The translations under genes and the position numbers were made by a program. The notes below the pieces were generated by a model. It was not told where the DNA came from. It saw only the letters and a program-made list of their open reading frames with translations, and did not search any database. Positions 3,149 to 63,428 of a stretch of DNA of 64,000 nt are shown here, piece by piece; positions within the stretch are counted from its first letter, which is position 1; every line of letters starts with the position of its first letter. Origin of the DNA: Fidelibacterota bacterium (lineage in GTDB: Bacteria; Fidelibacterota; UBA2242); NCBI GenBank assembly GCA_016782645.1, contig JADHYC010000004.1, positions 612 to 64,611 of the forward strand. The letters are read 5' to 3'.

Positions 3149-3613
3149 AAACTATCTCCTATGAAATAAGGTCTTTAATAATAGTAATTATTGCATAATG
3201 CATTATAATCGTAATAATTTAGCAAAAGAAATAACCCTATATTTGAGAATTGAAAAACAACAAACAGTGAAAGTAACAAATAGAACATTAACAATAAACG
3301 AAAATAATTTATTATATTATTGGCAAAGAATCAAAGATACTTTATTTTCCAATCTACAAGAAAAACCAGAGAAATTTAAAGAGAGACAAAACAAAATCAG
3401 TTTGATTCTGAAATTAATCTTAGCGAATTTCATAATAGATTATGTTGGTAGATTAGTTGATATCCAAGCAAGCCTCACTCGGCTTTTAATATTCCTCACC
3501 TTTTACAAAAGGCCTAATTCATTGTTTTGATAATAAAAATATGTAATTAATTTTAACCAGAATCTTTGAATAGCGGTTAAATAGAATTACAATTGAGATA
3601 AAGGCACAAAAAT

Positions 3614-5371
3614 ATGTTAAAAAGAACAGTAACATGTGGCGAATTAAGAAGAGAAAATTTAAGGCAAACTGTTGTTCTTAATGGTTGGGTAAATCGCAAA
3701 CGGGATCACGGCGGACTAAGTTTTATAGATTTGCGCGATAGATATGGTCTAACGCAAGTCGTCTTCGATCCTGAAGTGGGAGAAAAACTTCTAAATAAAG
3801 CTAAGAAGTTGGGTGCTGAAGATGTTGTGGCTGTTAAAGGAGTTGTAAGGATTCGCCCTCAAGCCTCCCCAAATCGTGAAATGTCCACAGGTGAAATTGA
3901 AGTTCTCGCACAAGAGTTAGAAATTCTGAATAAATCAAAACCTCTTCCATTCCTTATCACTGACCGCTCTACGGGTCTCGAAGACTTGCGATTAAAATAC
4001 AGGTATCTTGATCTGCGTACAAAGGACTTACAACGAACAATTGCTATCAGACATTCCGCCGCTCAAAGTGTACGGAAATATTATACAGAGAATAATTTTT
4101 ACGAAGTTGAAACTCCTTTTTTAATGAAAAGTACTCCTGAAGGAGCAAGAGATTATCTGGTACCAAGCAGAATTAATAAAGGCAAATTTTATGCTCTTCC
4201 TCAATCTCCTCAAACTTACAAACAACTCTTGATGATCTCAGGATTTGATAAATATTTTCAGATTGTTAAATGCTTTCGTGATGAAGACCTTCGAGCTGAC
4301 AGACAGCCGGAATTTACACAGATTGATGTCGAAATATCCTTCGTGGAAGAAGAAGATGTGCTCAAATCTACAGAGTCAATGCTCAGACAGGTATTCAAAG
4401 AAGTAATCGGAATTGAACTGGTAAATCCCTTCCCACGAATGACCTACGAAAATGCGTTCAAACTTTACGGCACTGATAAACCTGATCTGAGATTCGGAAT
4501 GAAAATCCATAAAATTAATAAAATTGCTGATAAAACCGATTTTAAAGTCTTCAAATCAGTAATTAATAATGACGGAATCATTGCAGGAATATGTGTCCCC
4601 GGCGGAGCAAAACTCTCCAGAAAAGGAATTGATGAACTAACAGAAAAGGCTCGGATTCTTGGTACAAAAGGGCTGGTGTTTACAAAAATCACTGAAAATG
4701 GCTTAGAGGGTGGAATTGCCAAGTTCCTCTGTTCTGCTATTAAAGAAATTAACCAGGAATTTAAAGCAAACATCGGTGATTTATTGCTATTTGTAGCAGA
4801 CCAGAAAAATATTACATATCCGGTACTCGGAAATCTGCGATTAGAGGTCAGAAAAAAATTAGATTCGATACCAACAGATTCTTTTAAACCGGTTTGGGTA
4901 ACACACTTTCCCCTGCTGGAGTGGAGTGAAGAAGAACAGCGGTATGTTGCAACTCATCATCCGTTTACTTCATCCGTTCCGGAAGATATGAAGTTTCTGG
5001 ATAAAGAACCGGAAAAAGCCCATTCCCGCTCCTACGATATTGTAATCAACGGACAGGAAATTGGTGGTGGAAGTATTAGAAATCATACTGTAGAGATGCA
5101 GGAAAAGATGTTTGAAGTCTTGAAAATAAGCAAACAAGAGTCACGTAAAAAGTTCGGTTTCCTCTTAGATGCTCTTTCTTATGGCGCCCCACCACATGGT
5201 GGAATAGCTCTCGGATTTGACCGGCTTGTAATGATCTTAGCGGGAGTTGGTAATATCAGGGAGGTAATAGCTTTTCCCAAAACAACAAGCGCTTCTTCTC
5301 TAATGGACGGCTGTCCTACAGATGTTGATAAGCAACAGCTGAAAGAATTAGGAATTACAATAAAATACTGA
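3614..5371 (+). CDS. aspS: aspartate--tRNA ligase
   Basis: 585 aa. Class II aaRS motifs (FRDEDLRADRQPEFTQID, GGGSIR, GFDRLVMIL) and N-terminal OB anticodon-binding domain. Stop is TGA. Confidence 0.95.
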   Translation: MLKRTVTCGELRRENLRQTVVLNGWVNRKRDHGGLSFIDLRDRYGLTQVVFDPEVGEKLLNKAKKLGAEDVVAVKGVVRIRPQASPNREMSTGEIEVLAQELEILNKSKPLPFLITDRSTGLEDLRLKYRYLDLRTKDLQRTIAIRHSAAQSVRKYYTENNFYEVETPFLMKSTPEGARDYLVPSRINKGKFYALPQSPQTYKQLLMISGFDKYFQIVKCFRDEDLRADRQPEFTQIDVEISFVEEEDVLKSTESMLRQVFKEVIGIELVNPFPRMTYENAFKLYGTDKPDLRFGMKIHKINKIADKTDFKVFKSVINNDGIIAGICVPGGAKLSRKGIDELTEKARILGTKGLVFTKITENGLEGGIAKFLCSAIKEINQEFKANIGDLLLFVADQKNITYPVLGNLRLEVRKKLDSIPTDSFKPVWVTHFPLLEWSEEEQRYVATHHPFTSSVPEDMKFLDKEPEKAHSRSYDIVINGQEIGGGSIRNHTVEMQEKMFEVLKISKQESRKKFGFLLDALSYGAPPHGGIALGFDRLVMILAGVGNIREVIAFPKTTSASSLMDGCPTDVDKQQLKELGITIKY

Positions 5372-7967: not shown

Positions 7968-8282
7968 ATTTTCCTCTTTTCTAAAATCTAGGAATGTTTT
8001 CTCTTAAGTATTTTTATATTTTCTTTATATAGTGATAATTTCAAAAAAATCCCTTGTAAAGTTTTGATGCCCACTGGTGTCAGGTTTCATTTTTCGAGAC
8101 TAATTAAAAATCTTTAGAAATTTACAATTTGAAATATGAAATTCTCTCACTTTTCTCTTCTCTAAATTTCCTTTTCAATTTGATCCGCCGTCTGGCGGAT
8201 TGATATTTGCTCCAAAGGAGCCTCTTCGAGGCAATTTAAAATTCTTTTACTTATACCATATTCCCTTCTACCTTAATAACCT

Positions 8283-9929
8283 TTACAATGTCTTAACCAC
8301 CTTATCCATATCTGAAACTACATTTTGACTCGCTTTAGTAAGGCTGGAATTCATTATCTTTTCAAAAAATTTACTTTTTGCCTCTTCCTCAACTGTTTCA
8401 CATCCTTGAACAATTATTAATCCTTTACTGATAACAATTTGAGCAACTTCTGATATGAAAATTCTTAGCATTGCCGACAATTTACCAGCATCCAGATTGC
8501 CATGTTCAATAAGATTTGCCACCTTTCTTACAAACGCGGCAGCTACTTCGGTATAGGTTATAATGTCAGAAAGTAAAAATTGAATATGCTGCTGGCGTGT
8601 TAACCTCTGTTTATGAGCAAACATTATCAAATCATTGAGAATATTAAGAGAATCTCCAATTATTTTTGCATTGATATCTTTTACTTTTCCAGCAATATCT
8701 TCCATTTCTCTGGCAAGATTGTTGTAATATTGACCCTTGCTTCTTACAGTAGTTCGCCAGCGAAATAGGTATATTATATTCTGCTGAATCTCACTAGTAC
8801 CTTCATAGATAGTCGTGACTCTGACATCCCTCTTGATTTTCTCCACTTCATATTCACGCATATAGCCATATCCACCATGCGCTTGAATTGCAGACTCTGC
8901 TGCTGCATTCCCAATTTCAGTGGCAAAATATTTAGCAATTGAACCCTCTACCATAATATCAGTATCACCTGAATCAATCCTACTGGCAATTTCTTCAATG
9001 TACATCCGCGCAGCTCCCAATCTTACAATATGAGGAACTATGAGTTTGTGAGAGTACCCCTGTTTTTCAATTAATGGGGAACCAAACTGAACTCTTTCTT
9101 TAGCAAATTTAATGGATTTTTCTATTGCTGAAAGTCCGGCTCCCAATCCAAATGCGGCAACCATAAGGCGAGTATATGCAAAAACCTCGTTTGCCTGTTT
9201 CATTCCATTACCAGGAACACCACCAATAATATTTTCAGCCGGAACCATGACATTTTCAAAAGTTAGTGCCGCCGTATTTGCACTTCGAATTCCATGCTTA
9301 TGTTCATGTTCACCTCTGACAAATCCTTTAGAATTTCCTTCTACTATGAAAAACGTTGGTTCCTCGGGAGCCTTTGCCAGTACCGAAAAAAATTCAGCAA
9401 ATCCGCCATTTGAAATAAATTGTTTGCTGCCATTTAATTTATACCAAGAAATTTTTCCTGATTCGTCTTTAATTGGCTCAGCCTTTGTTTTTATCGCTTC
9501 AAGATTACTGCCTGCTTCAGATTCGGTTACTGCATAAGCTACGATAGCACCCTTGTCAACTATTTTTCCAAGCCATTTTTTCTTCTGTTCTTCTGTTCCG
9601 GAAAGCAGGATTGGTTCTACACCTAAATGAATAGCCAGAAACGCAGTGGAAACGCCAAGACAGATTTTCGCTAATTCTGTTGAAACATGAAATGTATCCA
9701 CTACTCCACCACCAAGCCCACCATATTCTTCAGGAATAAAAACCATCTGTAAACCGACTCGCTCGCTAAGCAATTCCTTTATAATATCCAGTGGAAACTC
9801 TTCACTTTCATCCAATTTAAGGATTTTATCACGAGATAGAAGTTCTTTATGTACTGATCTGATAGTATCTAGAATCATTTCTCGTGTTTCAATATCAAGC
9901 CCGGCTTTCTCTGTCATATTTTCCTCCAT
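8283..9929 (-). CDS. acyl-CoA dehydrogenase (long form with C-terminal extension)
   Basis: ACAD motifs (YEGTSEIQ, GGYGYMREY), 548 aa. Divergent from tldD and upstream of etfBA. Confidence 0.85.
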   Translation of the reverse strand: MEENMTEKAGLDIETREMILDTIRSVHKELLSRDKILKLDESEEFPLDIIKELLSERVGLQMVFIPEEYGGLGGGVVDTFHVSTELAKICLGVSTAFLAIHLGVEPILLSGTEEQKKKWLGKIVDKGAIVAYAVTESEAGSNLEAIKTKAEPIKDESGKISWYKLNGSKQFISNGGFAEFFSVLAKAPEEPTFFIVEGNSKGFVRGEHEHKHGIRSANTAALTFENVMVPAENIIGGVPGNGMKQANEVFAYTRLMVAAFGLGAGLSAIEKSIKFAKERVQFGSPLIEKQGYSHKLIVPHIVRLGAARMYIEEIASRIDSGDTDIMVEGSIAKYFATEIGNAAAESAIQAHGGYGYMREYEVEKIKRDVRVTTIYEGTSEIQQNIIYLFRWRTTVRSKGQYYNNLAREMEDIAGKVKDINAKIIGDSLNILNDLIMFAHKQRLTRQQHIQFLLSDIITYTEVAAAFVRKVANLIEHGNLDAGKLSAMLRIFISEVAQIVISKGLIIVQGCETVEEEAKSKFFEKIMNSSLTKASQNVVSDMDKVVKTL

Positions 9930-56559: not shown

Positions 56560-56632
56560 GGCTCGGTAGCTCAGTCGGTAGAGCAGGGGACTGAAAATCC
56601 CTGTGTCGGCAGTTCAATTCTGTCCCGAGCCA
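56560..56632 (+). tRNA. tRNA-Phe (anticodon GAA)
   Basis: 73-nt cloverleaf: acceptor GGCTCGG/CCGAGCC, D arm GCTC-AGTCGGTA-GAGC, anticodon stem-loop GGGGA-CTGAAAA-TCCCT (GAA at 34-36), T arm GGCAG-TTCAATT-CTGTC, discriminator A. Close to E. coli tRNA-Phe. Confidence 0.95.
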
Positions 56633-56642
56633 CACTCCAAAC

Positions 56643-56680: not shown

Positions 56681-56709
56681 TCTACATTTCAGGTGAAATG
56701 TAGCCAATA

Positions 56710-56760
56710 GGGACAAATAGGGACATACTGGGACATAGGGTAGTGACTTTTTGGTGACTT
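56710..56760. repeat. phased direct repeats GGGACA x3 (10-bp spacing) and GTGACTTT x2 next to the attL side
   Basis: GGGACA at 56710, 56720, 56730. GTGACTTT at 56743 and 56753. Helical-turn phasing suggests recombination-directionality or integrase arm-type sites. Confidence 0.45.
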
Positions 56761-56886: not shown

Positions 56887-57915
56887 TCAACGATATTTTA
56901 TCAATCCATCAAGTGCTTTAACACCGCTTAATAAATTGTCTTCCAATAGGTCGGCATAATGCTTTTCAGTAACTTTAACTGAGGAGTGTCCCAAGAGTTT
57001 TGATACAGTAAAGATATCTACTCCTGATTGTACAAGCAGACTACCATAAGTCTTCCGAAACGTATGAATATTGGCATTCTCAATACCGGCGGCTACGTAG
57101 TACTTATGTATCTTTTTAAACAGATATTCATAATTAAAGTCAAAGGGCTGTTCATGTTTTTCTGCAAACTTGCGACGGTCAAGTATTTCATATACTGTAT
57201 CATTAATAGGGATGAACCGGATCTTATTTCTCTTTCCAATTAATTTGATTCTTCTTCTTTGAAGATCAACATTGTCCCAGGTAAATCGTACAGGTAATAT
57301 TTCTTCTCTCCTGGCGCCGGTATGGAGGTACATTAAGATTAAATCGCGGTAATTTGGATCGTCGGTAACATCCAATAACCGATTAATTTCATCGATGGTA
57401 AGAAACCGAATACTATGTTCTTTTTGTTTTGGTCCATTTAATCCTTTTGTAGGATTGTTTTCAAGATAACCATGTTTGATCATGAAGTTGAAGAATGCTC
57501 TCAGGGTTCTGATCTCGATACCAATCGTGGCGGGTGTTAAACCATCAGTTTTATATCTTTTATTGATATAGCCTTCCATGTCTTTTAATCCAATTGAACG
57601 CACGGTTAGGTTTCCGATATAATTCACAAAGGGCTTATATACCTTTTTCTCTCTTTTAATGGTTGATGCTTCTTTTTGTGTTTCCATAACTCTCAGATAA
57701 TGTAAGAAAGCCCTTTCGAGGGTAATCTTTTTATCGCTACCGTTGTCAAGTCCGAGTAATATTCTGGACTTTTTATACTCGATCTGTTTTGCTAAGGCTT
57801 CTGCTGTTTTTCTGTCACAATATAGGCTCTTAACATGTCGTTTTCCATCAGAATCATAATAGTCAATTTTATATCCTTCACCCTTGCCAGTGATAATTTT
57901 TCTAATCGATGCCAT
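56887..57915 (-). CDS. int: tyrosine-type site-specific integrase
   Basis: C-terminal catalytic region HTFRKTYGSLLVQSGVDIFTVSKLLGHSSVKVTEKHY (R…HxxR…Y). The ATG at 57915 is preceded by GAGGAGG. The ORF-track TTG at 57942 is less likely. Confidence 0.85.
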   Translation of the reverse strand: MASIRKIITGKGEGYKIDYYDSDGKRHVKSLYCDRKTAEALAKQIEYKKSRILLGLDNGSDKKITLERAFLHYLRVMETQKEASTIKREKKVYKPFVNYIGNLTVRSIGLKDMEGYINKRYKTDGLTPATIGIEIRTLRAFFNFMIKHGYLENNPTKGLNGPKQKEHSIRFLTIDEINRLLDVTDDPNYRDLILMYLHTGARREEILPVRFTWDNVDLQRRRIKLIGKRNKIRFIPINDTVYEILDRRKFAEKHEQPFDFNYEYLFKKIHKYYVAAGIENANIHTFRKTYGSLLVQSGVDIFTVSKLLGHSSVKVTEKHYADLLEDNLLSGVKALDGLIKYR

Positions 57916-58108
57916 TGATGACCTCCTCGTAATATTTGTCAATAGATTTGATTTCTTGAATAATTTGCTCCAGGTTGGATTCTTTAATCCTGATACCAGA
58001 GCCTACTCTGTAGACTTGAATGTTGTTTTCATGTACAAGTCTCCGCAGTGTCTTGACAGACACATCCAGCAATGCTGCTGCTGATTTGAGACTGTACAAC
58101 TGTTCCAT
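57902..58108 (-). CDS. excisionase-family helix-turn-helix DNA-binding protein (Xis/AlpA-like)
   Basis: 68 aa, LKSAAALLDVSVKTLRRLVHENNIQVYRVGSGIRIKESNLEQI matches the excisionase/MerR-type HTH_17 pattern. Overlaps the int start by 14 nt. Confidence 0.65.
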   Translation of the reverse strand: MEQLYSLKSAAALLDVSVKTLRRLVHENNIQVYRVGSGIRIKESNLEQIIQEIKSIDKYYEEVINGID

Positions 58109-58349: not shown

Positions 58350-58640
58350 CAGACTGTGTATAGACTTTTTAAAACCGTGGTTTTATACACAAAATGTTAT
58401 AGTTTAGGTACAATAAAGGGGCTAAACAGCCCCTTTTAGTGTATCTAATGACATACTCTAATTAGATGATTATACGTAGGTTATGTATTGATATTTTAAA
58501 GTTGTGTATAGTAAATCGGTTATACACAGAAATAACCGGTAAAAACAGGTAGATTTTTACGTTTTAGGCGTAATTTCCACCCAATTGGGCCCAAAATCAG
58601 AGTTTTCGTGTATATTTGTGTATGAATTTTGTGTATAATT
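58350..58640. promoter_or_regulatory. 680-bp gene-free control region with at least 7 copies of TGTGTATA / TATACACA in both orientations
   Basis: Copies at 58356, 58384 (inverted), 58504, 58521 (inverted), 58609, 58618 (degenerate) and 58631. Lies between the leftward int/xis and rightward replication genes, so probably operators and divergent promoters. Confidence 0.5.
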
Positions 58641-58788: not shown

Positions 58789-59289
58789 ATGGGGCAAAAG
58801 AATTATTCACGACGTTTACTCCTAACGGATCCGAAAAATTTTGGTCTGGAATTTTCCGGGAACAGCCTGGAAAATTTCCTGAAATCCTACGAGGATAGGA
58901 AAATTTTACCCCGCCCGATCACAATCGGAGATAGATCTCTAAAAAGAGGAACCAAAAGAGGATACTATTTTCCGGTCTTTATTGAAATGATAAAGGATCT
59001 GCAGTATCTTCGGGGTACAAAAAAATACAGACCCCTGGGTATCAAAGAATGGTTAGAAAATAAGTATGCCCGTGTATATAATTTATATGACATCGCGGAA
59101 CTGTTCCGATTGCAGTTTCTGCCAGAGAGTGTATTAGTTGAATATTTAAATAACTCTCACCTAACTAATACCCAGAAAGATAAAGTGATGGCGTTTTATG
59201 AAAACCATCCGAGTTATCAGGAGGTAAAAAAGAGCATTCTTAATATGCTCTCTCAGATAAACATCAGCAGTGAGGCTGATATGAGATAA
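58789..59289 (+). CDS. hypothetical protein of mobile element
   Basis: 166 aa, basic. First rightward gene after the control region. Confidence 0.5.
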   Translation: MGQKNYSRRLLLTDPKNFGLEFSGNSLENFLKSYEDRKILPRPITIGDRSLKRGTKRGYYFPVFIEMIKDLQYLRGTKKYRPLGIKEWLENKYARVYNLYDIAELFRLQFLPESVLVEYLNNSHLTNTQKDKVMAFYENHPSYQEVKKSILNMLSQINISSEADMR

Positions 59290-59651
59290 TGATAAACAAC
59301 ATATTTTTATTATACAAAGATGCCGGTCTGCTCTATTCATGGAGCGATTGGCATTGTTTTATTTTAAATCAGGAATCAAAAATGAACACAACAATAACAA
59401 CTGATTTTTATTTAACAGCATACCTGTTAAGTGAAAATATACCCCTTGTAAAACATACGAGGAGTAATAATAAGTCAACTTTTGAATTTACCGGCGATAA
59501 TATTTCAGAAATCATGGAGAAATATTATTCCGGCAATGCGATGGTTTCAATAAATAAATACGCTGAAGCCATGCGAGAATTAAAAAACATCATGTACAAT
59601 GATACATCTATACACCAACCAATAAACAACTATGAAAGGAAATATTCTTAA
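59289..59651 (+). CDS. hypothetical protein of mobile element
   Basis: TAATG overlap with the upstream gene. An alternative start is the ATG at 59380 (MNTTITTDF…) with an AGGA RBS. Confidence 0.45.
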   Translation: MINNIFLLYKDAGLLYSWSDWHCFILNQESKMNTTITTDFYLTAYLLSENIPLVKHTRSNNKSTFEFTGDNISEIMEKYYSGNAMVSINKYAEAMRELKNIMYNDTSIHQPINNYERKYS

Positions 59652-61653
59652 TGATACGATTGAGTTATCATTAATTGAAAAGAACTATAATGGCAGCCAG
59701 AACATCTGGTTTGAAAGTAAAAAAATACAGATTAAAGACCTTGAAAAGATATTTAAAACAAAAAATTACTCAACGATTAAATGGCGTGATGGAAACAGAA
59801 AAGAAAACAACTTTCTATCCTCAGCAGGATATATAGTTGATATTGATGAAGGACTTTCAATACACGACGCCGAGACACGATTAAAAAAGCATAAACTAAA
59901 TTATATCATTGCTCCGAGCAAGAGCCATACACCGGAAAAGCACCGCTATCATATAGTATTATTATTTAACCGAACGGTTAGATCAATAAATACCTATAAG
60001 AAAATAGCAAAACATCTTACATCTGAATTATTTCCGGAATCCGATCAAAATGTTTCTGATGGCGCCAGGTATATTTACGGATCACCGGATACAGTTAATG
60101 CCACATCATGGTTTGAGGGTAATTATTTTGAAGTTGATAAATTTGGTGAACTGTGGGATTCATCATTAGAGTTTATGGATTCAGATGATAATACATTAAC
60201 TGTAGGAGATCTGGATGAATCTGAAAAAACTAAAATACATTGTCCGTTTCACAATGATGAGAACCCATCGGCATTTGTAGAATATTCAGCCAGAAGTGAT
60301 AACTGGTATATATACTGCTCATCATGTGGTAAAACCTTCTGGAAAGAGAAAAATGCTAACCCCAATGAAGTCAAATGCAAGGACCTCTGGTCACACACTG
60401 ATAATGTTTACCAATTTGGTATTGCCGGAGAGGAGTTCTTCATTGAAAGAGTAGGATTGAAAAAGTTTTATGCAATGACTGGCTCCAGTAAACCAACGGA
60501 AAAGGAAAATATATACCGATATCTTATAAAACATAAACATATTCCACATATCACCCGTGTAGATCACCTTGCTGATATAGATGCTGATAAATCATATTAT
60601 AATGTTAATCTTAGCGAAGGAGTCATAAAAGTTCATTATTCAGGTATTGAAGACAAGATAAAGGATAACCAGTTCGTAGAAAATTATCTTGAAGATACTT
60701 TTAAACAATATAAAGATTTTATCAAAGAGTACCTGGCAGTGTTCTGCTATACCAACTACTTGAAACTTCCTACTCTTGTTCTATCTGGTGATAGAGGAAC
60801 CGGGAAGTCAACATTTGTAGAGATTGTAGGCGATATTTTTAAACCTTTGACTACAGAGTGGTGCGGCAATGAAAGTAATTTTACACCTGAAGTAGAGAAG
60901 AAATTGTTGATAGTAGAAGAGAATGATATTGTTCACAAATCTCAGTACAAGACCTTAAAAAAGTATTCCGGCCAAAAATATTCCAAAGTGAACAAGAAGT
61001 TCACTCCGGTATATTCGGTTCGGAATAATATGAATATTATTCTTCTATCAAATGATGCGATTGCTTTGTACGTAAAAAAAGAAGAATTGCCCGCTGATGG
61101 AAAAAATAATCAGTTCCTCGTATTCGAATTTCAACAGTTTAAAGGCCCTATTGATGCTTCCATTCAAGATAAGATCCTTGATAGATTAGGACATTATATC
61201 AGGACTGAATTAAAATCAGTTTATGATCATCTTAACTTTTCGAGTTACAGGTACAGTATAAATGTACCTATTACAGATGCTGAAAAGGCTTTGTTTAGGA
61301 ATAATGCAACTGATATAGAATTAGACACCGACAAGTTTATACAGCAATTGAATGATCTTTATAACAGCAAATCGGCAACAATTGAACCGGGTTTTATTGA
61401 TGAAGGGTTCTTGGTAGCATCAGTTTTTGACACAATATATTTTGTTGAGAAAATCCGTAATAAGGTTATCAGAAATCTTTACTCAAGGCGTTTTTTGAAG
61501 GACATTGAGCCAATAAAGAAGCAGATTAACAAAAAAAGATTATATTGTTATACCATGACTGATAGGCTTAAGAATGAAATTACAAAATCTTTTAGTTGTA
61601 AATCAGCGCCTGAAAATAGAAATCAACTAAATTTAGGCTATGAAAAGCAATAA
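59632..61653 (+). CDS. replication protein: primase-type N-terminal domain, Zn-ribbon, SF3 (D5/P4-alpha-like) helicase
   Basis: HCPFHNDENPSAF…CSSCGK zinc motif, Walker A GDRGTGKST, Walker B LLIVEEND. 673 aa. Followed immediately by iterons. Confidence 0.75.
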   Translation: MKGNILNDTIELSLIEKNYNGSQNIWFESKKIQIKDLEKIFKTKNYSTIKWRDGNRKENNFLSSAGYIVDIDEGLSIHDAETRLKKHKLNYIIAPSKSHTPEKHRYHIVLLFNRTVRSINTYKKIAKHLTSELFPESDQNVSDGARYIYGSPDTVNATSWFEGNYFEVDKFGELWDSSLEFMDSDDNTLTVGDLDESEKTKIHCPFHNDENPSAFVEYSARSDNWYIYCSSCGKTFWKEKNANPNEVKCKDLWSHTDNVYQFGIAGEEFFIERVGLKKFYAMTGSSKPTEKENIYRYLIKHKHIPHITRVDHLADIDADKSYYNVNLSEGVIKVHYSGIEDKIKDNQFVENYLEDTFKQYKDFIKEYLAVFCYTNYLKLPTLVLSGDRGTGKSTFVEIVGDIFKPLTTEWCGNESNFTPEVEKKLLIVEENDIVHKSQYKTLKKYSGQKYSKVNKKFTPVYSVRNNMNIILLSNDAIALYVKKEELPADGKNNQFLVFEFQQFKGPIDASIQDKILDRLGHYIRTELKSVYDHLNFSSYRYSINVPITDAEKALFRNNATDIELDTDKFIQQLNDLYNSKSATIEPGFIDEGFLVASVFDTIYFVEKIRNKVIRNLYSRRFLKDIEPIKKQINKKRLYCYTMTDRLKNEITKSFSCKSAPENRNQLNLGYEKQ

Positions 61654-61654
61654 A

Positions 61655-61841
61655 GTGTCCAGAGTGTCCATGAAGTGTCCAAGAAATATGCGTGCTTTGG
61701 ACACCGTAAATCACTGTATATTAATAAGATAGAACAATGTGTCCAGAGTGTCCATAGAAAATATATAGAAAAAAAATAATTATAATTATGATTACTAAAA
61801 AATACTTTATATTGTCAAAAAACACTGGACACTTTGGACAC
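61655..61841. repeat. iteron array: GTGTCCA x5 direct (61655, 61664, 61675, 61739, 61748) and TGGACAC x3 inverted (61698, 61826, 61835); putative origin of replication
   Basis: Starts 2 nt after the replication gene stop. 9-10-nt phasing. Followed by an AT-rich tract incl. (TA)7 at about 61893-61906. Confidence 0.65.
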
Positions 61842-62078
61842 TTTTTAAACCATGCAGCAAGATATTTAAAGTAAAAAAAAGCATTTTTGGCGTTTTCCTA
61901 TATATATATATAGGAACTCGCCAATTTTGCCTTTTTTGAAAAAAGGAGAATAAAATAATGAATTTATTTGTCCAAAAACCCCGGATTTTAAAAACCAAAA
62001 ACTAGTATGCTAAAAGTAAAAAGATGTAATTTTCACGAGGAGAAGTTGAGGAAAACAATACCTAAAAGGAGTCAATAA

Positions 62079-62252
62079 ATGAAATATTTTAAAAAATCAA
62101 AAGTGAAATTAACAGGCGTTTCACTTGAAGATAATGATATCCAGGTACCTGATAAAGTCGAGGTATCAGAGCGCATGCACAAGGACAAAATCGGGGGATT
62201 GTTTGCACCCTTGAGTAAGAAGGAAATAAAAGTAGTGAAACCCAATAATTAA
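62079..62252 (+). CDS. possible small protein (57 aa)
   Basis: AAAGGAG RBS 7 nt before the ATG. MKYFKKSKVKLTGVSLEDNDIQVP…. Below the ORF-track size cut-off. It conflicts with the minus-strand ORF 62089..62316, which lacks any signal. Confidence 0.35.
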   Translation: MKYFKKSKVKLTGVSLEDNDIQVPDKVEVSERMHKDKIGGLFAPLSKKEIKVVKPNN

Positions 62253-62638
62253 AATCTTCCCTATTTTCAAAAGGAGTCTCTGCAGGGCGGTTTAATATAA
62301 TACGGGGTACCAACATCCCCAGCAGAGCAAAGTAAAAATGCTTTTTATACTGGAAAACGATTCCCAGAAATTTTTTTATATTTTTTTCAGACTTCTATTA
62401 AGCGATTTCTCCAACCACACAACTCATCATGTAGAATGGAATACGGGTTTAAATTTAACGATTTTCTACTTGGTACGGATATCTCACTAATTTACCTGAA
62501 AGCCAGGGAAGATAAACCGGTAATAAAAAGAGAGTGTTGATTCCTATAAAAGCGACCAATTTCATATAACGGTTCTGTGTATAAGCCGTTACGCAGCTAT
62601 GGATTATACACATTGTTGTAGCCAGTTTAATTAAGCTA

Positions 62639-63184: not shown

Positions 63185-63428
63185 CGTTGTGATCCTTTTA
63201 AGGTTTATGTGGTTTAGATATCAATTTTATCATGTAGTTTTTAAATTGGCTACAACGGTTGGGGGATATGGGAAGTTCGTCCAGTCAGGGCGAATTTGTG
63301 TGAAAGACCCGCAGGGTCGTGAACCCCATATCCCCCTGTTGTGCGACCGTTGTTTGGCGTTTTTGTTAATTATCATTTATCATACAAATATATATATTTG
63401 TTTAAGATTGAGCATTATTCTTCCATTG

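What the first reader, a model, noticed from the sequence alone, without database searches (positions are those of the whole stretch)
61655..61910. Iteron-type origin immediately 3' of the primase-helicase gene
Eight copies of the heptamer GTGTCCA (five direct, three inverted) at 9-10-nt phasing begin 2 nt after the replication-gene stop. They are followed by an AT-rich tract and a (TA)7 run. In P4 the alpha primase-helicase binds octamer iterons in ori and in crr (located right after alpha). SaPI ori is an iteron-AT-iteron unit right after rep. This is therefore a strong candidate cognate Rep-iteron pair.
Basis: partly seen in the sequence, partly recalled or inferred. Interest (0 to 1): 0.65.

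Follow-up and report, generated by a model that had tools for sequence, protein, structure and literature searches.

The report
Iteron replication origin after primase-helicase gene
Directly after the primase-helicase gene of a small integrated mobile element in an uncultured marine bacterium lies a block of short repeats flanking an AT-rich stretch; about 100 related elements have the same layout with different repeat sequences, so it is very probably the element's own replication origin, built like those of staphylococcal pathogenicity islands.

Summary
Eight of the 11 GTGTCCA copies in the 64-kb window lie in 61655-61841 (P ~1e-21).

Layout: three direct copies start 1 nt after the stop codon, then one inverted, then two direct. 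A 71-nt spacer of 87% AT follows, then two inverted copies. The (TA)7 run is separate: it is the tip of a terminator-like hairpin (61874-61937).

The 673-aa protein has an SF3 helicase core, a CHC2 zinc site, an AEP-like N-terminus and a predicted C-terminal winged helix. Its closest solved folds are NrS-1, poxvirus D5/E5 and SaPI5 primase-helicases.

Comparison with relatives is decisive. In 98 related loci (Marinimicrobia, Ignavibacteriota, Bacteroidota and others), 71% have at least 4 copies of some heptamer at the stop codon, against 0.7% of control windows. There are roughly 15-25 motif types, all in the same layout of opposed sets around an AT-rich gap. Iteron similarity tracks the C-terminal domain (partial Mantel p = 0.0002-0.0007). 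It does not track the helicase core or the neighbouring DUF5659 protein.

The layout matches the published SaPI origin. Verdict: a cognate Rep-iteron origin, and a new member of a known kind in an uncharacterised family of small elements (about 6 kb where both flanks look like host genes). Replication and binding are untested.

The parts
59632..61653 (+). Gene for the 673-aa replication protein (P0001). It has an AEP-like N-terminal domain, a CHC2 zinc site, an SF3 helicase core (DUF5906) and a C-terminal winged-helix-like domain (residues ~586-642).
   Evidence: ORF. Pfam DUF5906 E = 3e-13, with a weak CHC2 zinc-finger hit. Invariant D70, D72, H99, D138, C204, H207, C229, C232 and Walker A residues in 42 homologues. 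AF2 model pLDDT 86, with a1-b1-a2-a3-b2-b3 order at 586-642. Foldseek matches to NrS-1, MPXV E5/VACV D5, SaPI5 PriRep and ASFV PrimPol.
59289..59651 (+). DUF5659 gene, which overlaps the start of the primase-helicase gene. It is a conserved partner in the replication module; its function is unknown.
   Evidence: Pfam DUF5659 E = 3.5e-9. A homologue lies immediately upstream of the primase-helicase gene in 63 of 86 loci. It shows no covariation with the iterons.
61654..61683 (+). Left iteron triplet, three direct copies: AGTGTCCAG AGTGTCCAT GA AGTGTCCAAG. The heptamers start at 61655, 61664 and 61675.
   Evidence: The same three positions (+1/+2, +10/+11, +21/+22) are occupied in L011, L025, L082 and L086.
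61698..61704 (-). Single inverted iteron (TGGACAC on the + strand).
   Evidence: It is conserved at +43 to +46 in L011, L082, L086 and other loci.
61739..61754 (+). Direct iteron doublet (GTGTCCAGAGTGTCCA) bordering the AT-rich spacer on the left.
   Evidence: repeat family D3. Conserved at +86 to +97 in relatives.
61755..61825 (.). AT-rich spacer, 71 nt and 87% AT. This is the predicted DNA-unwinding element.
   Evidence: Among 47 non-redundant relatives, 35 have a 55-125-nt gap of at least 70% AT between opposed iteron sets. The composition is conserved but the sequence is not.
61826..61841 (-). Right iteron doublet, inverted relative to the left sets (TGGACACTTTGGACAC on the + strand).
   Evidence: inverted repeat I14: arms 61652-61670 and 61826-61844, 19 nt, 95% complementary. 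Two to four inverted copies occupy this position in relatives.
61874..61937 (.). A 64-nt palindrome whose tip is the (TA)7 run (61899-61912). It has an A-run upstream and a T-run downstream. It is a probable bidirectional intrinsic terminator that closes the rep operon after the origin, and is not part of the iteron/AT unit.
   Evidence: I1; RNA fold -26.6 kcal/mol, z = -7.1.
56887..58108 (-). Integration module of the same element: tyrosine integrase (56887-57942) and excisionase-family HTH_17 protein (57902-58108). It lies next to tRNA-Phe (56560-56633, + strand).
   Evidence: TIGR01764 excisionase, E = 3e-11.

Best explanation
The region 61654-61841 is the vegetative replication origin of a small integrated mobile element of a Candidatus Marinimicrobia bacterium. 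The element lies next to tRNA-Phe and carries an integrase, an excisionase, a DUF5659 gene and the primase-helicase gene; its right end is unknown.

Proposed mechanism:
1. The C-terminal winged-helix domain of the 673-aa primase-helicase recognises the 9-bp iterons (AGTGTCCAR). These form two opposed groups: six on the left, beginning 1 nt after the protein's own stop codon, and two on the right.
2. The groups flank a 71-nt spacer of 87% AT. Helicase hexamers assemble on each side in opposite orientation and melt the spacer.
3. The SF3 motor unwinds outwards and the N-terminal primase domain makes primers. Host polymerase then copies the excised circle.
4. The hairpin carrying (TA)7, 33 nt further on, ends transcription of the rep operon.

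Shown here: the repeat cluster and its geometry; its conservation at this position in the protein family, with many different repeat sequences; the helicase fold; and covariation between the iterons and the C-terminal domain.

Inferred only: binding, melting, double-hexamer loading, priming and replication of the excised form.
For: - Local enrichment: 8 of 11 window copies lie in 190 nt, P ~1e-21.
- Family-wide conservation: in 98 related loci the top heptamer within -60 to +260 of the stop codon has at least 4 exact copies in 71% of loci and at least 5 in 48%. The figures for 3,900 control windows from the same loci are 0.74% and 0.13%.
- Position: a copy lies within 25 nt of the stop in 45 of 47 non-redundant loci.
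- Diversity with a constant layout: there are 26 top heptamers, roughly 15-25 distinct iterons once register shifts are merged. The layout stays the same, with opposed sets around a 55-125-nt gap of at least 70% AT, in 35 of 47 loci. The closest relative, L035 (61% identity), has the same layout with degenerate TGGCTGT/TGGACTG units.
- Selection on the repeats: origins of elements whose proteins are only 35-40% identical align with every iteron column invariant and the spacers variable.
- Specificity: partial Mantel tests give iteron vs C-terminal domain (controlling for helicase) r = 0.22-0.23, p = 0.0002-0.0007. The other tests are null: iteron vs helicase (controlling for the C-terminal domain) and iteron vs DUF5659, r = -0.02, p = 0.63.
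- Linkage to the rep gene: the iterons stay at the rep stop codon while the integrase and tRNA positions vary. The integrase is upstream in some loci and at +380 to +650 in L009, L010, L011 and L084. Lineages with a different N-terminal domain keep the layout.
- Protein: SF3 helicase with Walker A, a zinc site and AEP-like acidic/His residues. AF2 model pLDDT 86 with winged-helix topology at 586-642. Foldseek matches NrS-1 (E ~1e-15), poxvirus E5/D5 and SaPI5 PriRep 7OLA (E = 4e-9). The C-terminal segments give weak but recurrent winged-helix Pfam hits: HTH_27 in 7 of 28 members, plus ScpB and MCM_WH.
- Precedent: SaPI origins have this same description (PMC9371898). pRN1 needs an inverted-repeat element just downstream of its prim-pol/SF3/winged-helix gene (PMC4234260).
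Against: - There is no experimental evidence of any kind.
- No circular or episomal contigs were found among 117 loci.
- No homologue exists on any sequenced plasmid or phage, so replicon function has not been shown for any family member.
- The winged-helix assignment rests on a predicted structure and sub-threshold Pfam hits. The profile search against PDB sequences was not significant (best hit AdcR, E = 0.13), and the stand-alone model of the C-terminal domain failed (pLDDT 41).
- The covariation is modest (r ~0.2-0.3). It could partly reflect physical linkage, because the C-terminal coding region lies next to the iterons.
- GTGTCCA is shared by proteins only 35-40% identical to the window protein, while closer relatives (51-61% identical) use other iterons. 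The recognition code is therefore not simple.
- The N-terminal domain has no Pfam primase hit.
- The right end of the element and its att sites were not found.
Confidence: 0.8

Rival explanations
1. The repeats are a functional protein-binding array tied to the rep gene, but not the initiation site. They could be a copy-control or incompatibility locus that titrates or handcuffs Rep. They could also be an operator bound by another element protein such as DUF5659, or by a host factor. Initiation would then happen elsewhere, for example in the 58.1-58.8-kb intergenic region that holds the TGTGTATA repeats.
For: - A second repeat family (TGTGTATA, 11 copies against 2.2 expected) occupies the large intergenic region upstream of the rep operon and recurs at 62576-62612.
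- DUF5659 is as tightly linked to the module as the iterons are.
- P4 needs a second iteron site (crr) that is not the start site (my own knowledge; the held papers did not confirm it).
Against: - The array includes an 87% AT spacer flanked by opposed sites, which is the geometry of an unwinding origin rather than an operator.
- DUF5659 shows no covariation with the iterons (r = -0.02, p = 0.63).
- No second GTGTCCA cluster exists in the element.
- The TGTGTATA pairs look like palindromic operators between divergent promoters.
Confidence: 0.1
2. The repeats are recombination or packaging signals: arm-type sites for the integrase and excisionase, or a pac/cos-like site used when a helper phage mobilises the element.
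For: - The element has a tyrosine integrase and an excisionase, and its att sites were not located.
- Satellite-like elements need a packaging signal, and none was identified.
Against: - The cluster keeps its position at the rep stop codon while the integrase and tRNA lie 3-5 kb upstream in some relatives and immediately downstream in others.
- A different repeat (GGGACA x3 at 56708-56737) sits where arm sites are expected, next to tRNA-Phe and the integrase gene.
- The repeat sequence covaries with the Rep C-terminal domain.
- No terminase or capsid gene is present.
Confidence: 0.04
3. The cluster is a chance or slippage-derived simple repeat with no function.
For: None beyond the general AT-richness of the intergenic DNA.
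Against: P ~1e-21 locally. The layout recurs in about 100 loci with different repeat sequences. Iteron columns are invariant across elements whose proteins are 35-40% identical.
Confidence: 0.01

Closest known systems
SaPI/PICI replication origin with its Rep or PriRep self-loading SF3 helicase (Staphylococcus aureus pathogenicity islands; PMC9371898)
   Same: - Iterons lie immediately downstream of the rep ORF.
- The centre is AT-rich, with at least two iterons on each side pointing in opposite directions.
- Rep is an SF3 helicase with a C-terminal winged-helix domain, and in SaPI5 it is fused to a primase.
- NrS-1 helicase is the closest structural homologue of both proteins.
- Both sit in a small integrase-bearing chromosomal island.
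   Different: - There is no detectable sequence homology to SaPI Reps; the match is by fold only (7OLA, E = 4e-9, 13% identity).
- The iteron unit is 9 bp with a 7-bp core, rather than penta- or hexanucleotides.
- The host phyla are different and uncultured (Marinimicrobia and FCB-group relatives).
- No repressor, terS or capsid-remodelling genes were found, so phage inducibility is unknown.
- A conserved DUF5659 partner gene has no SaPI counterpart.
pRN1 ORF904 replicon (Sulfolobus plasmid; PMC4234260, PMC2777425)
   Same: - A single polypeptide combines a primase domain, an SF3 helicase and a C-terminal winged helix.
- A small gene is co-transcribed upstream (orf56 there, DUF5659 here).
- The essential cis element is an inverted repeat around a ~58-nt loop shortly downstream of the rep stop codon. 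Here the 19-nt arms at 61652-61670 and 61826-61844 are 95% complementary.
- pRN-family elements also occur integrated in chromosomes.
   Different: - The pRN1 origin is described as lacking iterons.
- ORF904 has a recognisable prim-pol Pfam domain, whereas the N-terminus here matches no Pfam model.
- pRN1 is archaeal and this element is bacterial.
- orf56 is a CopG-type repressor and is not related to DUF5659.
Satellite phage P4 alpha protein with ori and crr
   Same: A multifunctional protein combining primase, SF3 helicase and a C-terminal winged helix, which binds short repeats at the origin (as summarised in PMC4234260 and PMC2777425). It belongs to an integrative satellite.
   Different: - The P4 primase is the bacterial Toprim/DnaG type. 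Here only a weak CHC2 zinc-ribbon match was found and no Toprim domain.
- P4 uses two separated iteron regions (my own knowledge). This element has one cluster.
PICMI minimalist marine satellites (Vibrionaceae; PMC10803314), tycheposons (bioRxiv 10.1101/2020.12.28.424599) and VEIMEs (PMC9618062)
   Same: The element type matches: small marine integrative elements with an integrase, an AlpA/excisionase-type regulator, a primase or primase-helicase and a few unknown genes. PICMI115 is 6.1 kb with six genes. Tycheposons target tRNA genes and carry a 2-4-kb replication module.
   Different: - No origin of replication or iterons are described in those papers.
- The hosts and proteins are different.
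- No evidence here of phage induction, of packaging as concatemers, or of presence in viral fractions. Only two weak hits were found in IMG/VR.
Classical iteron plasmids (RepA, pi and TrfA type)
   Same: Repeated initiator-binding sites lie next to an AT-rich unwinding region, and the sites are element-specific.
   Different: In those plasmids the initiators are WH1-WH2 proteins without helicase activity, and the iterons are ~17-22 bp and direct (my own knowledge of these plasmids). Here the initiator is itself a helicase, the repeats are 9 bp, and they form opposed sets.

Membership tests
SaPI/PICI-type Rep-adjacent iteron origin | Iterons lie immediately downstream of the rep open reading frame | tested here: met
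   The first unit starts 1 nt after the stop codon. A copy lies within 25 nt of the stop in 45 of 47 non-redundant relatives.
SaPI/PICI-type Rep-adjacent iteron origin | AT-rich region near the centre, with iterons on both sides | tested here: met
   A 71-nt spacer of 87% AT at 61755-61825 lies between six copies on the left and two on the right.
SaPI/PICI-type Rep-adjacent iteron origin | [quoted passage not shown] | tested here: met
   Copies at 61739 and 61748 (+) face copies at 61826 and 61835 (-). The same holds in 35 of 47 non-redundant relatives.
SaPI/PICI-type Rep-adjacent iteron origin | Rep is an SF3-type hexameric helicase with a C-terminal winged-helix domain | tested here: met
   Fold matches to NrS-1, D5/E5 and SaPI5 PriRep. 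Predicted a1-b1-a2-a3-b2-b3 topology at 586-642 with pLDDT 79-91. Weak winged-helix Pfam hits. This is prediction level only; hexamer formation was not tested.
SaPI/PICI-type Rep-adjacent iteron origin | Rep binds its cognate iterons specifically and melts the origin; rep plus ori replicate autonomously | not testable with these tools
   Only indirect support: iteron similarity covaries with the C-terminal domain.
SaPI/PICI-type Rep-adjacent iteron origin | Sequence homology of Rep to SaPI Rep/Pri-Rep proteins | tested here: not met
   The profile search of PDB sequences finds only NrS-1 (E = 6.6e-9) and not 7OLA. The similarity to 7OLA is structural only, at 13% identity.
Phage satellite (PICI, PICMI or P4-like) | Helper-phage-dependent induction and packaging; packaging or capsid-redirection genes in PICI and P4 | tested here: inconclusive
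   No terminase, capsid or Sid/Ppi-like hits in Pfam, PHROGs or NCBIfam for the element's ORFs. Only two weak hits in IMG/VR. PICMI-type satellites also lack such genes, so their absence is not decisive.
P4 alpha / ori-crr system | Toprim (DnaG-type) primase domain | tested here: not met
   No Toprim hit in any of 42 members. Only a weak CHC2 zinc-ribbon match appeared, in 12 of 42.
P4 alpha / ori-crr system | Two separate iteron regions (ori and crr) | tested here: not met
   There is a single GTGTCCA cluster. The other three window copies are isolated and lie outside the element.
pRN1 ORF904-type replicon | N-terminal prim-pol (PF09250) domain | tested here: inconclusive
   No Pfam hit to the N-terminal ~190 residues. 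However, D70-x-D72, H99 and D138 are invariant, and full-length fold matches to AEP-primase-bearing MPXV E5 and ASFV PrimPol were found.
pRN1 ORF904-type replicon | Origin is a large stem-loop without iterons, downstream of the rep gene | tested here: not met
   The position downstream of rep and the inverted symmetry are shared (I14), but here the arms are made of iterons.
Classical iteron plasmid origin (RepA/pi type) | A WH1-WH2 initiator without helicase activity, and direct ~17-22-bp iterons | tested here: not met
   The initiator candidate is an SF3 helicase. The repeats are 9 bp and form opposed sets.

The most novel reading that the evidence does not exclude
The window element could represent a previously undescribed family of minimal integrative replicons, widespread in Marinimicrobia, Ignavibacteriota, Bacteroidota, Zixibacteria and related uncultured lineages. 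Members are about 6 kb where both flanks look like host genes.

Its conserved core would be DUF5659, then the primase-helicase, then the iteron origin. That core has diversified into roughly 15-25 mutually orthogonal pairs of Rep C-terminal domain and iteron. These would act as incompatibility groups and let several elements share one cell; three with different iterons occur in one MAG.

The elements may be PICMI-like phage satellites of uncultured marine and sediment bacteria. The natural set of Rep-iteron pairs would give a readable winged-helix recognition code. It would also give ready-made replicons for phyla that have no genetic tools.
Probability: 0.4. Interest if true: 0.65.

Novelty: new member of a known kind. 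Interest (0 to 1): 0.5.

Why it matters
No replicon, plasmid or satellite has been characterised for Marinimicrobia, and few exist for Ignavibacteriota. This module of rep gene plus about 200 bp is compact and self-contained, and comparison with relatives defines it well. It could be synthesised and tested directly as an origin.

The family provides roughly 15-25 natural variants of one architecture, each with its own repeat sequence. That is useful for three things:
- working out how a helicase-attached winged helix reads DNA;
- studying incompatibility between co-resident elements;
- building orthogonal vectors for FCB-group bacteria.

It also extends the SaPI-type arrangement, a self-loading SF3 helicase with its origin at its own stop codon, from Firmicutes to distant uncultured phyla. 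This links the SaPI and pRN1 replication models.

Tried and rejected
- **att sites and element ends.** No direct repeat of 12 bp or more links the tRNA-Phe region to the DNA right of the origin. None was found in 11 relatives with adjacent tRNA or tmRNA genes either. The right end is undefined. The shared contig ends at window 56561 and 63308 (L032, L033) probably reflect assembly-graph branching at conserved RNA-like sequences rather than element ends.
- **Circular contigs.** None among 117 loci.
- **Stand-alone AF2 model of the C-terminal domain.** pLDDT 41; discarded.
- **Profile of the C-terminal domain against PDB sequences.** Nothing significant.
- **NCBIfam.** No family for the replication protein, DUF5659, ORF166 or ORF57.
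- **Plasmid and phage collections.** No homologue. IMG/VR gave only two weak hits at 26-27% identity.
- **Rfam.** Only the tRNA.
- **(TA)7 as part of the unwinding element.** Rejected in favour of a terminator-like hairpin.
- **Arm-type-site and DUF5659-binding readings.** Considered and down-weighted.
- **Direct confirmation of P4 crr details.** The held literature did not provide it. That comparison rests partly on my own knowledge.

Full report
**The observation**

GTGTCCA occurs 11 times in the 64-kb window on both strands, against 3.9 +/- 2.1 in dinucleotide-preserving shuffles. Eight copies lie between 61655 and 61841: five on the + strand (61655, 61664, 61675, 61739, 61748) and three on the - strand (61698, 61826, 61835). 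Using the background rate outside the cluster, the Poisson probability of eight or more copies in 196 nt is about 1e-21. The 8-mer AGTGTCCA occurs six times in the window, all inside the cluster.

The stop codon of the 673-codon ORF is at 61651-61653, and the first extended unit starts at 61654.

The anatomy needs three small corrections:
- Spacing within the sets is 9, 11, 9 and 9 nt.
- The AT-rich tract (61755-61825, 71 nt, 87% AT) lies between the sixth and seventh copies. The layout is therefore three direct, one inverted, two direct, the AT spacer, then two inverted.
- The (TA)7 run (61899-61912) is separate from this unit. It forms the tip of a 64-nt palindrome (61874-61937) with an A-run before it and a T-run after it. 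That palindrome folds at -26.6 kcal/mol (z = -7.1) and looks like a bidirectional intrinsic terminator.

**Context**

The cluster belongs to a small integrated element. From left to right the window shows:
- tRNA-Phe (56560-56633);
- a tyrosine integrase (56887-57942, - strand);
- an excisionase-family HTH_17 protein (57902-58108, - strand);
- a 680-bp intergenic region;
- on the + strand, ORF166, a DUF5659 protein and the 673-aa protein with a DUF5906 core.

The 673-aa protein is identical to a hypothetical protein of a Candidatus Marinimicrobia MAG. Independent assemblies contain the same element. I could not find att duplications, so the right end is unknown.

**The protein**

In an alignment of 42 homologues several residues are invariant:
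- D70-x-D72, H99 and D138, an AEP-primase-like set;
- C204, H207, C229 and C232, a zinc site;
- the Walker A motif.

Pfam recognises only DUF5906 and, weakly, the DnaG-type CHC2 zinc ribbon. The first ~190 residues match no model.

An AlphaFold2 model built on the alignment is confident (mean pLDDT 86). Residues 586-642 follow the canonical winged-helix order a1-b1-a2-a3-b2-b3 at pLDDT 79-91. Foldseek against the PDB gives the NrS-1 phage primase-helicase C-terminal region (E ~1e-15), poxvirus E5/D5 primase-helicases, SaPI5 primase-helicase 7OLA (E = 4e-9) and ASFV PrimPol. By sequence profile, only NrS-1 is found.

The isolated C-terminal segments give sub-threshold but recurrent winged-helix Pfam matches: HTH_27 in 7 of 28 members, plus ScpB, MCM_WH and DnaD_N. 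The profile search against PDB sequences was not significant. A single-sequence model of the domain failed and was discarded.

**Comparative test**

I collected 29 genomic loci and 80 metagenomic loci that encode relatives at 34-61% identity. They come from Marinimicrobia, Zixibacteria, Ignavibacteriota, Bacteroidota and others.

In 98 loci with enough downstream DNA, I counted the most frequent non-low-complexity heptamer within -60 to +260 of the stop codon. I compared this with 3,900 control windows from the same loci:

| Exact copies of the top heptamer | Loci | Control windows |
|---|---|---|
| at least 4 | 71% | 0.74% |
| at least 5 | 48% | 0.13% |

In most loci this is the densest repeat cluster of the whole 7-14-kb stretch.

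The repeat differs between lineages. Examples are GTGTCCA, CTGTCCA, ACAGCCA, GCAGCCA, TTGCCCA, GTGCCTG, GGTGCCA, TGTCAGG, TGTAGGT, AGTGGCT and AGACCAT. Among 47 non-redundant loci there are 26 top heptamers, roughly 15-25 distinct iterons once register shifts are merged.

The layout is constant:
- A copy lies within 25 nt of the stop in 45 of 47 loci.
- In 35 of 47, opposed sets flank a 55-125-nt gap of at least 70% AT.
- Many loci reproduce the window's exact order of orientations.
- The closest relative (61% identity) has the same layout with degenerate TGGCTGT/TGGACTG units, so the exact counts understate the rule.
- Five origins of the GTGTCCA type, from hosts in different phyla with proteins 35-40% identical to the window's, align with every iteron column invariant. 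Their spacers conserve only composition.

Homogeneity within an element, divergence between elements, and a fixed geometry are what selection for binding by an element-encoded protein would produce.

**Which protein binds**

The cluster follows the rep gene and not the recombination module. The integrase lies 3-5 kb upstream in some relatives and directly after the iterons in others. tRNA genes occur on either side. Lineages whose N-terminal domain has been replaced keep the layout.

A DUF5659 gene directly precedes rep in 63 of 86 loci and was a plausible alternative binder. Partial Mantel tests on non-redundant loci separate the candidates:

| Comparison | Partial r | p |
|---|---|---|
| Iteron vs residues 590-645 (C-terminal domain), controlling for helicase core | 0.22-0.23 | 0.0002-0.0007 |
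| Iteron vs C-terminal domain, controlling for DUF5659 | 0.31 | 0.0003 |
| Iteron vs helicase core, controlling for C-terminal domain | about 0 | not significant |
| Iteron vs DUF5659 | -0.02 | 0.63 |

The effect is modest. Linkage between the C-terminal coding region and the adjacent iterons could contribute to it. It still points to the C-terminal domain as the specificity determinant.

**Mechanism and comparison with known systems**

The published description of SaPI origins fits this locus point by point (PMC9371898):
- 6-12 short iterons lie immediately downstream of the rep ORF.
- The centre is AT-rich.
- At least two iterons on each side point in opposite directions.
- They are read by a winged helix in the C-terminal domain of a self-loading SF3 helicase.

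SaPI Reps and this protein also share NrS-1 as their nearest structural neighbour.

The domain order of the protein, the small co-transcribed upstream gene, and an essential inverted-repeat element just after the stop codon recall pRN1 ORF904. That origin is described as lacking iterons (PMC4234260 and PMC2777425).

P4 alpha is a looser analogue. Its primase is of the Toprim type, which was not found here, and P4 uses two iteron regions, whereas this element has one.

As an element, the closest parallels are minimalist marine islands such as PICMI115 (6.1 kb; int, alpA, prim and three unknown genes) and tycheposons. No origin is described for either.

I therefore file the locus as working like a SaPI-type origin and as a new member of that kind. 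It is not a homologue of SaPI Rep by sequence, and it is not a demonstrated satellite.

**What remains open**

- Nothing here shows binding, melting or replication.
- No episomal contig and no plasmid or phage homologue was found.
- The family is modest in size: 145 clusters at E <= 1e-30 among 1.84 billion representatives.
- The right end of the element and its att sites are undefined.

My confidence that the cluster is a selected cis-element tied to the primase-helicase gene is about 0.95. My confidence that it is the origin bound by the protein's C-terminal domain is about 0.8.

Noticed in passing
window 56708-56737: Three direct copies of (T)AGGGACA at 10-11-nt spacing lie 75-105 nt beyond the 3' end of tRNA-Phe, beside the end of the integrase gene. 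They are candidate integrase arm-type sites and are distinct from the GTGTCCA iterons.
   Followed up: partly
window 58355-58391, 58503-58528, 58630-58637, 62576-62612 (also 63744, 63992): TGTGTATA occurs 11 times in the window against 2.2 expected. Nine of the 11 copies lie between 58355 and 63992. Three inverted pairs of the form TGTGTATA-N(10-21)-TATACACA lie between the excisionase gene and the rep operon, and again to the right of ORF57. They may be operator sites of an element regulator, and they suggest the element reaches at least 62612.
   Followed up: partly
window 63249-63344 (+): A very stable three-way hairpin (RNA fold -51.3 kcal/mol, z = -5.2) with no Rfam match. Two independent ENA assemblies both end inside it, at window position 63308. 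It may be an unannotated small RNA or a strain-variable junction.
   Followed up: partly
L004, L005, L006 (MAG JABIFX01, Neomarinimicrobiota SI053_bin30): One genome bin carries three related elements whose iterons differ (TGTCAGG, GGTAGGT, GGCAGGT). This fits divergence that avoids incompatibility, if the binning is correct.
   Followed up: no
L004, L040, L044, L050, L061 and relatives: -64 to -21 relative to the stop codon: In several lineages two or three iterons lie inside the 3' end of the coding sequence. The protein's C-terminal tail is therefore encoded by its own predicted binding sites.
   Followed up: no
L018, L022, L023; proteins P0130, P0137, P0138: Some relatives match only from residue ~247 onward and are 700-750 aa long, so they have a different N-terminal domain. 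They keep the same iteron layout, which shows modular exchange of the primase part.
   Followed up: partly
L011 ~3350-3370, L025 ~8055-8075, L082 ~4935-4955; window 61712-61730: A semi-conserved non-iteron block (TCAATG-N3-TACGGTA) lies between the single inverted iteron and the second direct pair in several GTGTCCA-type origins. The window has TCACTGTATATTAAT at that place. It may be a site for a host factor.
   Followed up: no
window 62079-62252: A small ORF (57 aa, MKYFKK...) with a good ribosome-binding site follows the origin. A 67%-identical homologue sits at the same place in the closest relative (L035/L038), and similar MKYF... ORFs follow the origins of L004-L006. No family match was found.
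   Followed up: partly
L017 ~9190-9370: In this Ignavibacterium locus the iteron cluster (TTGTCCA/GTGTCCA) lies about 1 kb downstream of the apparent end of the gene. This may be due to a frameshifted or rearranged gene.
   Followed up: no
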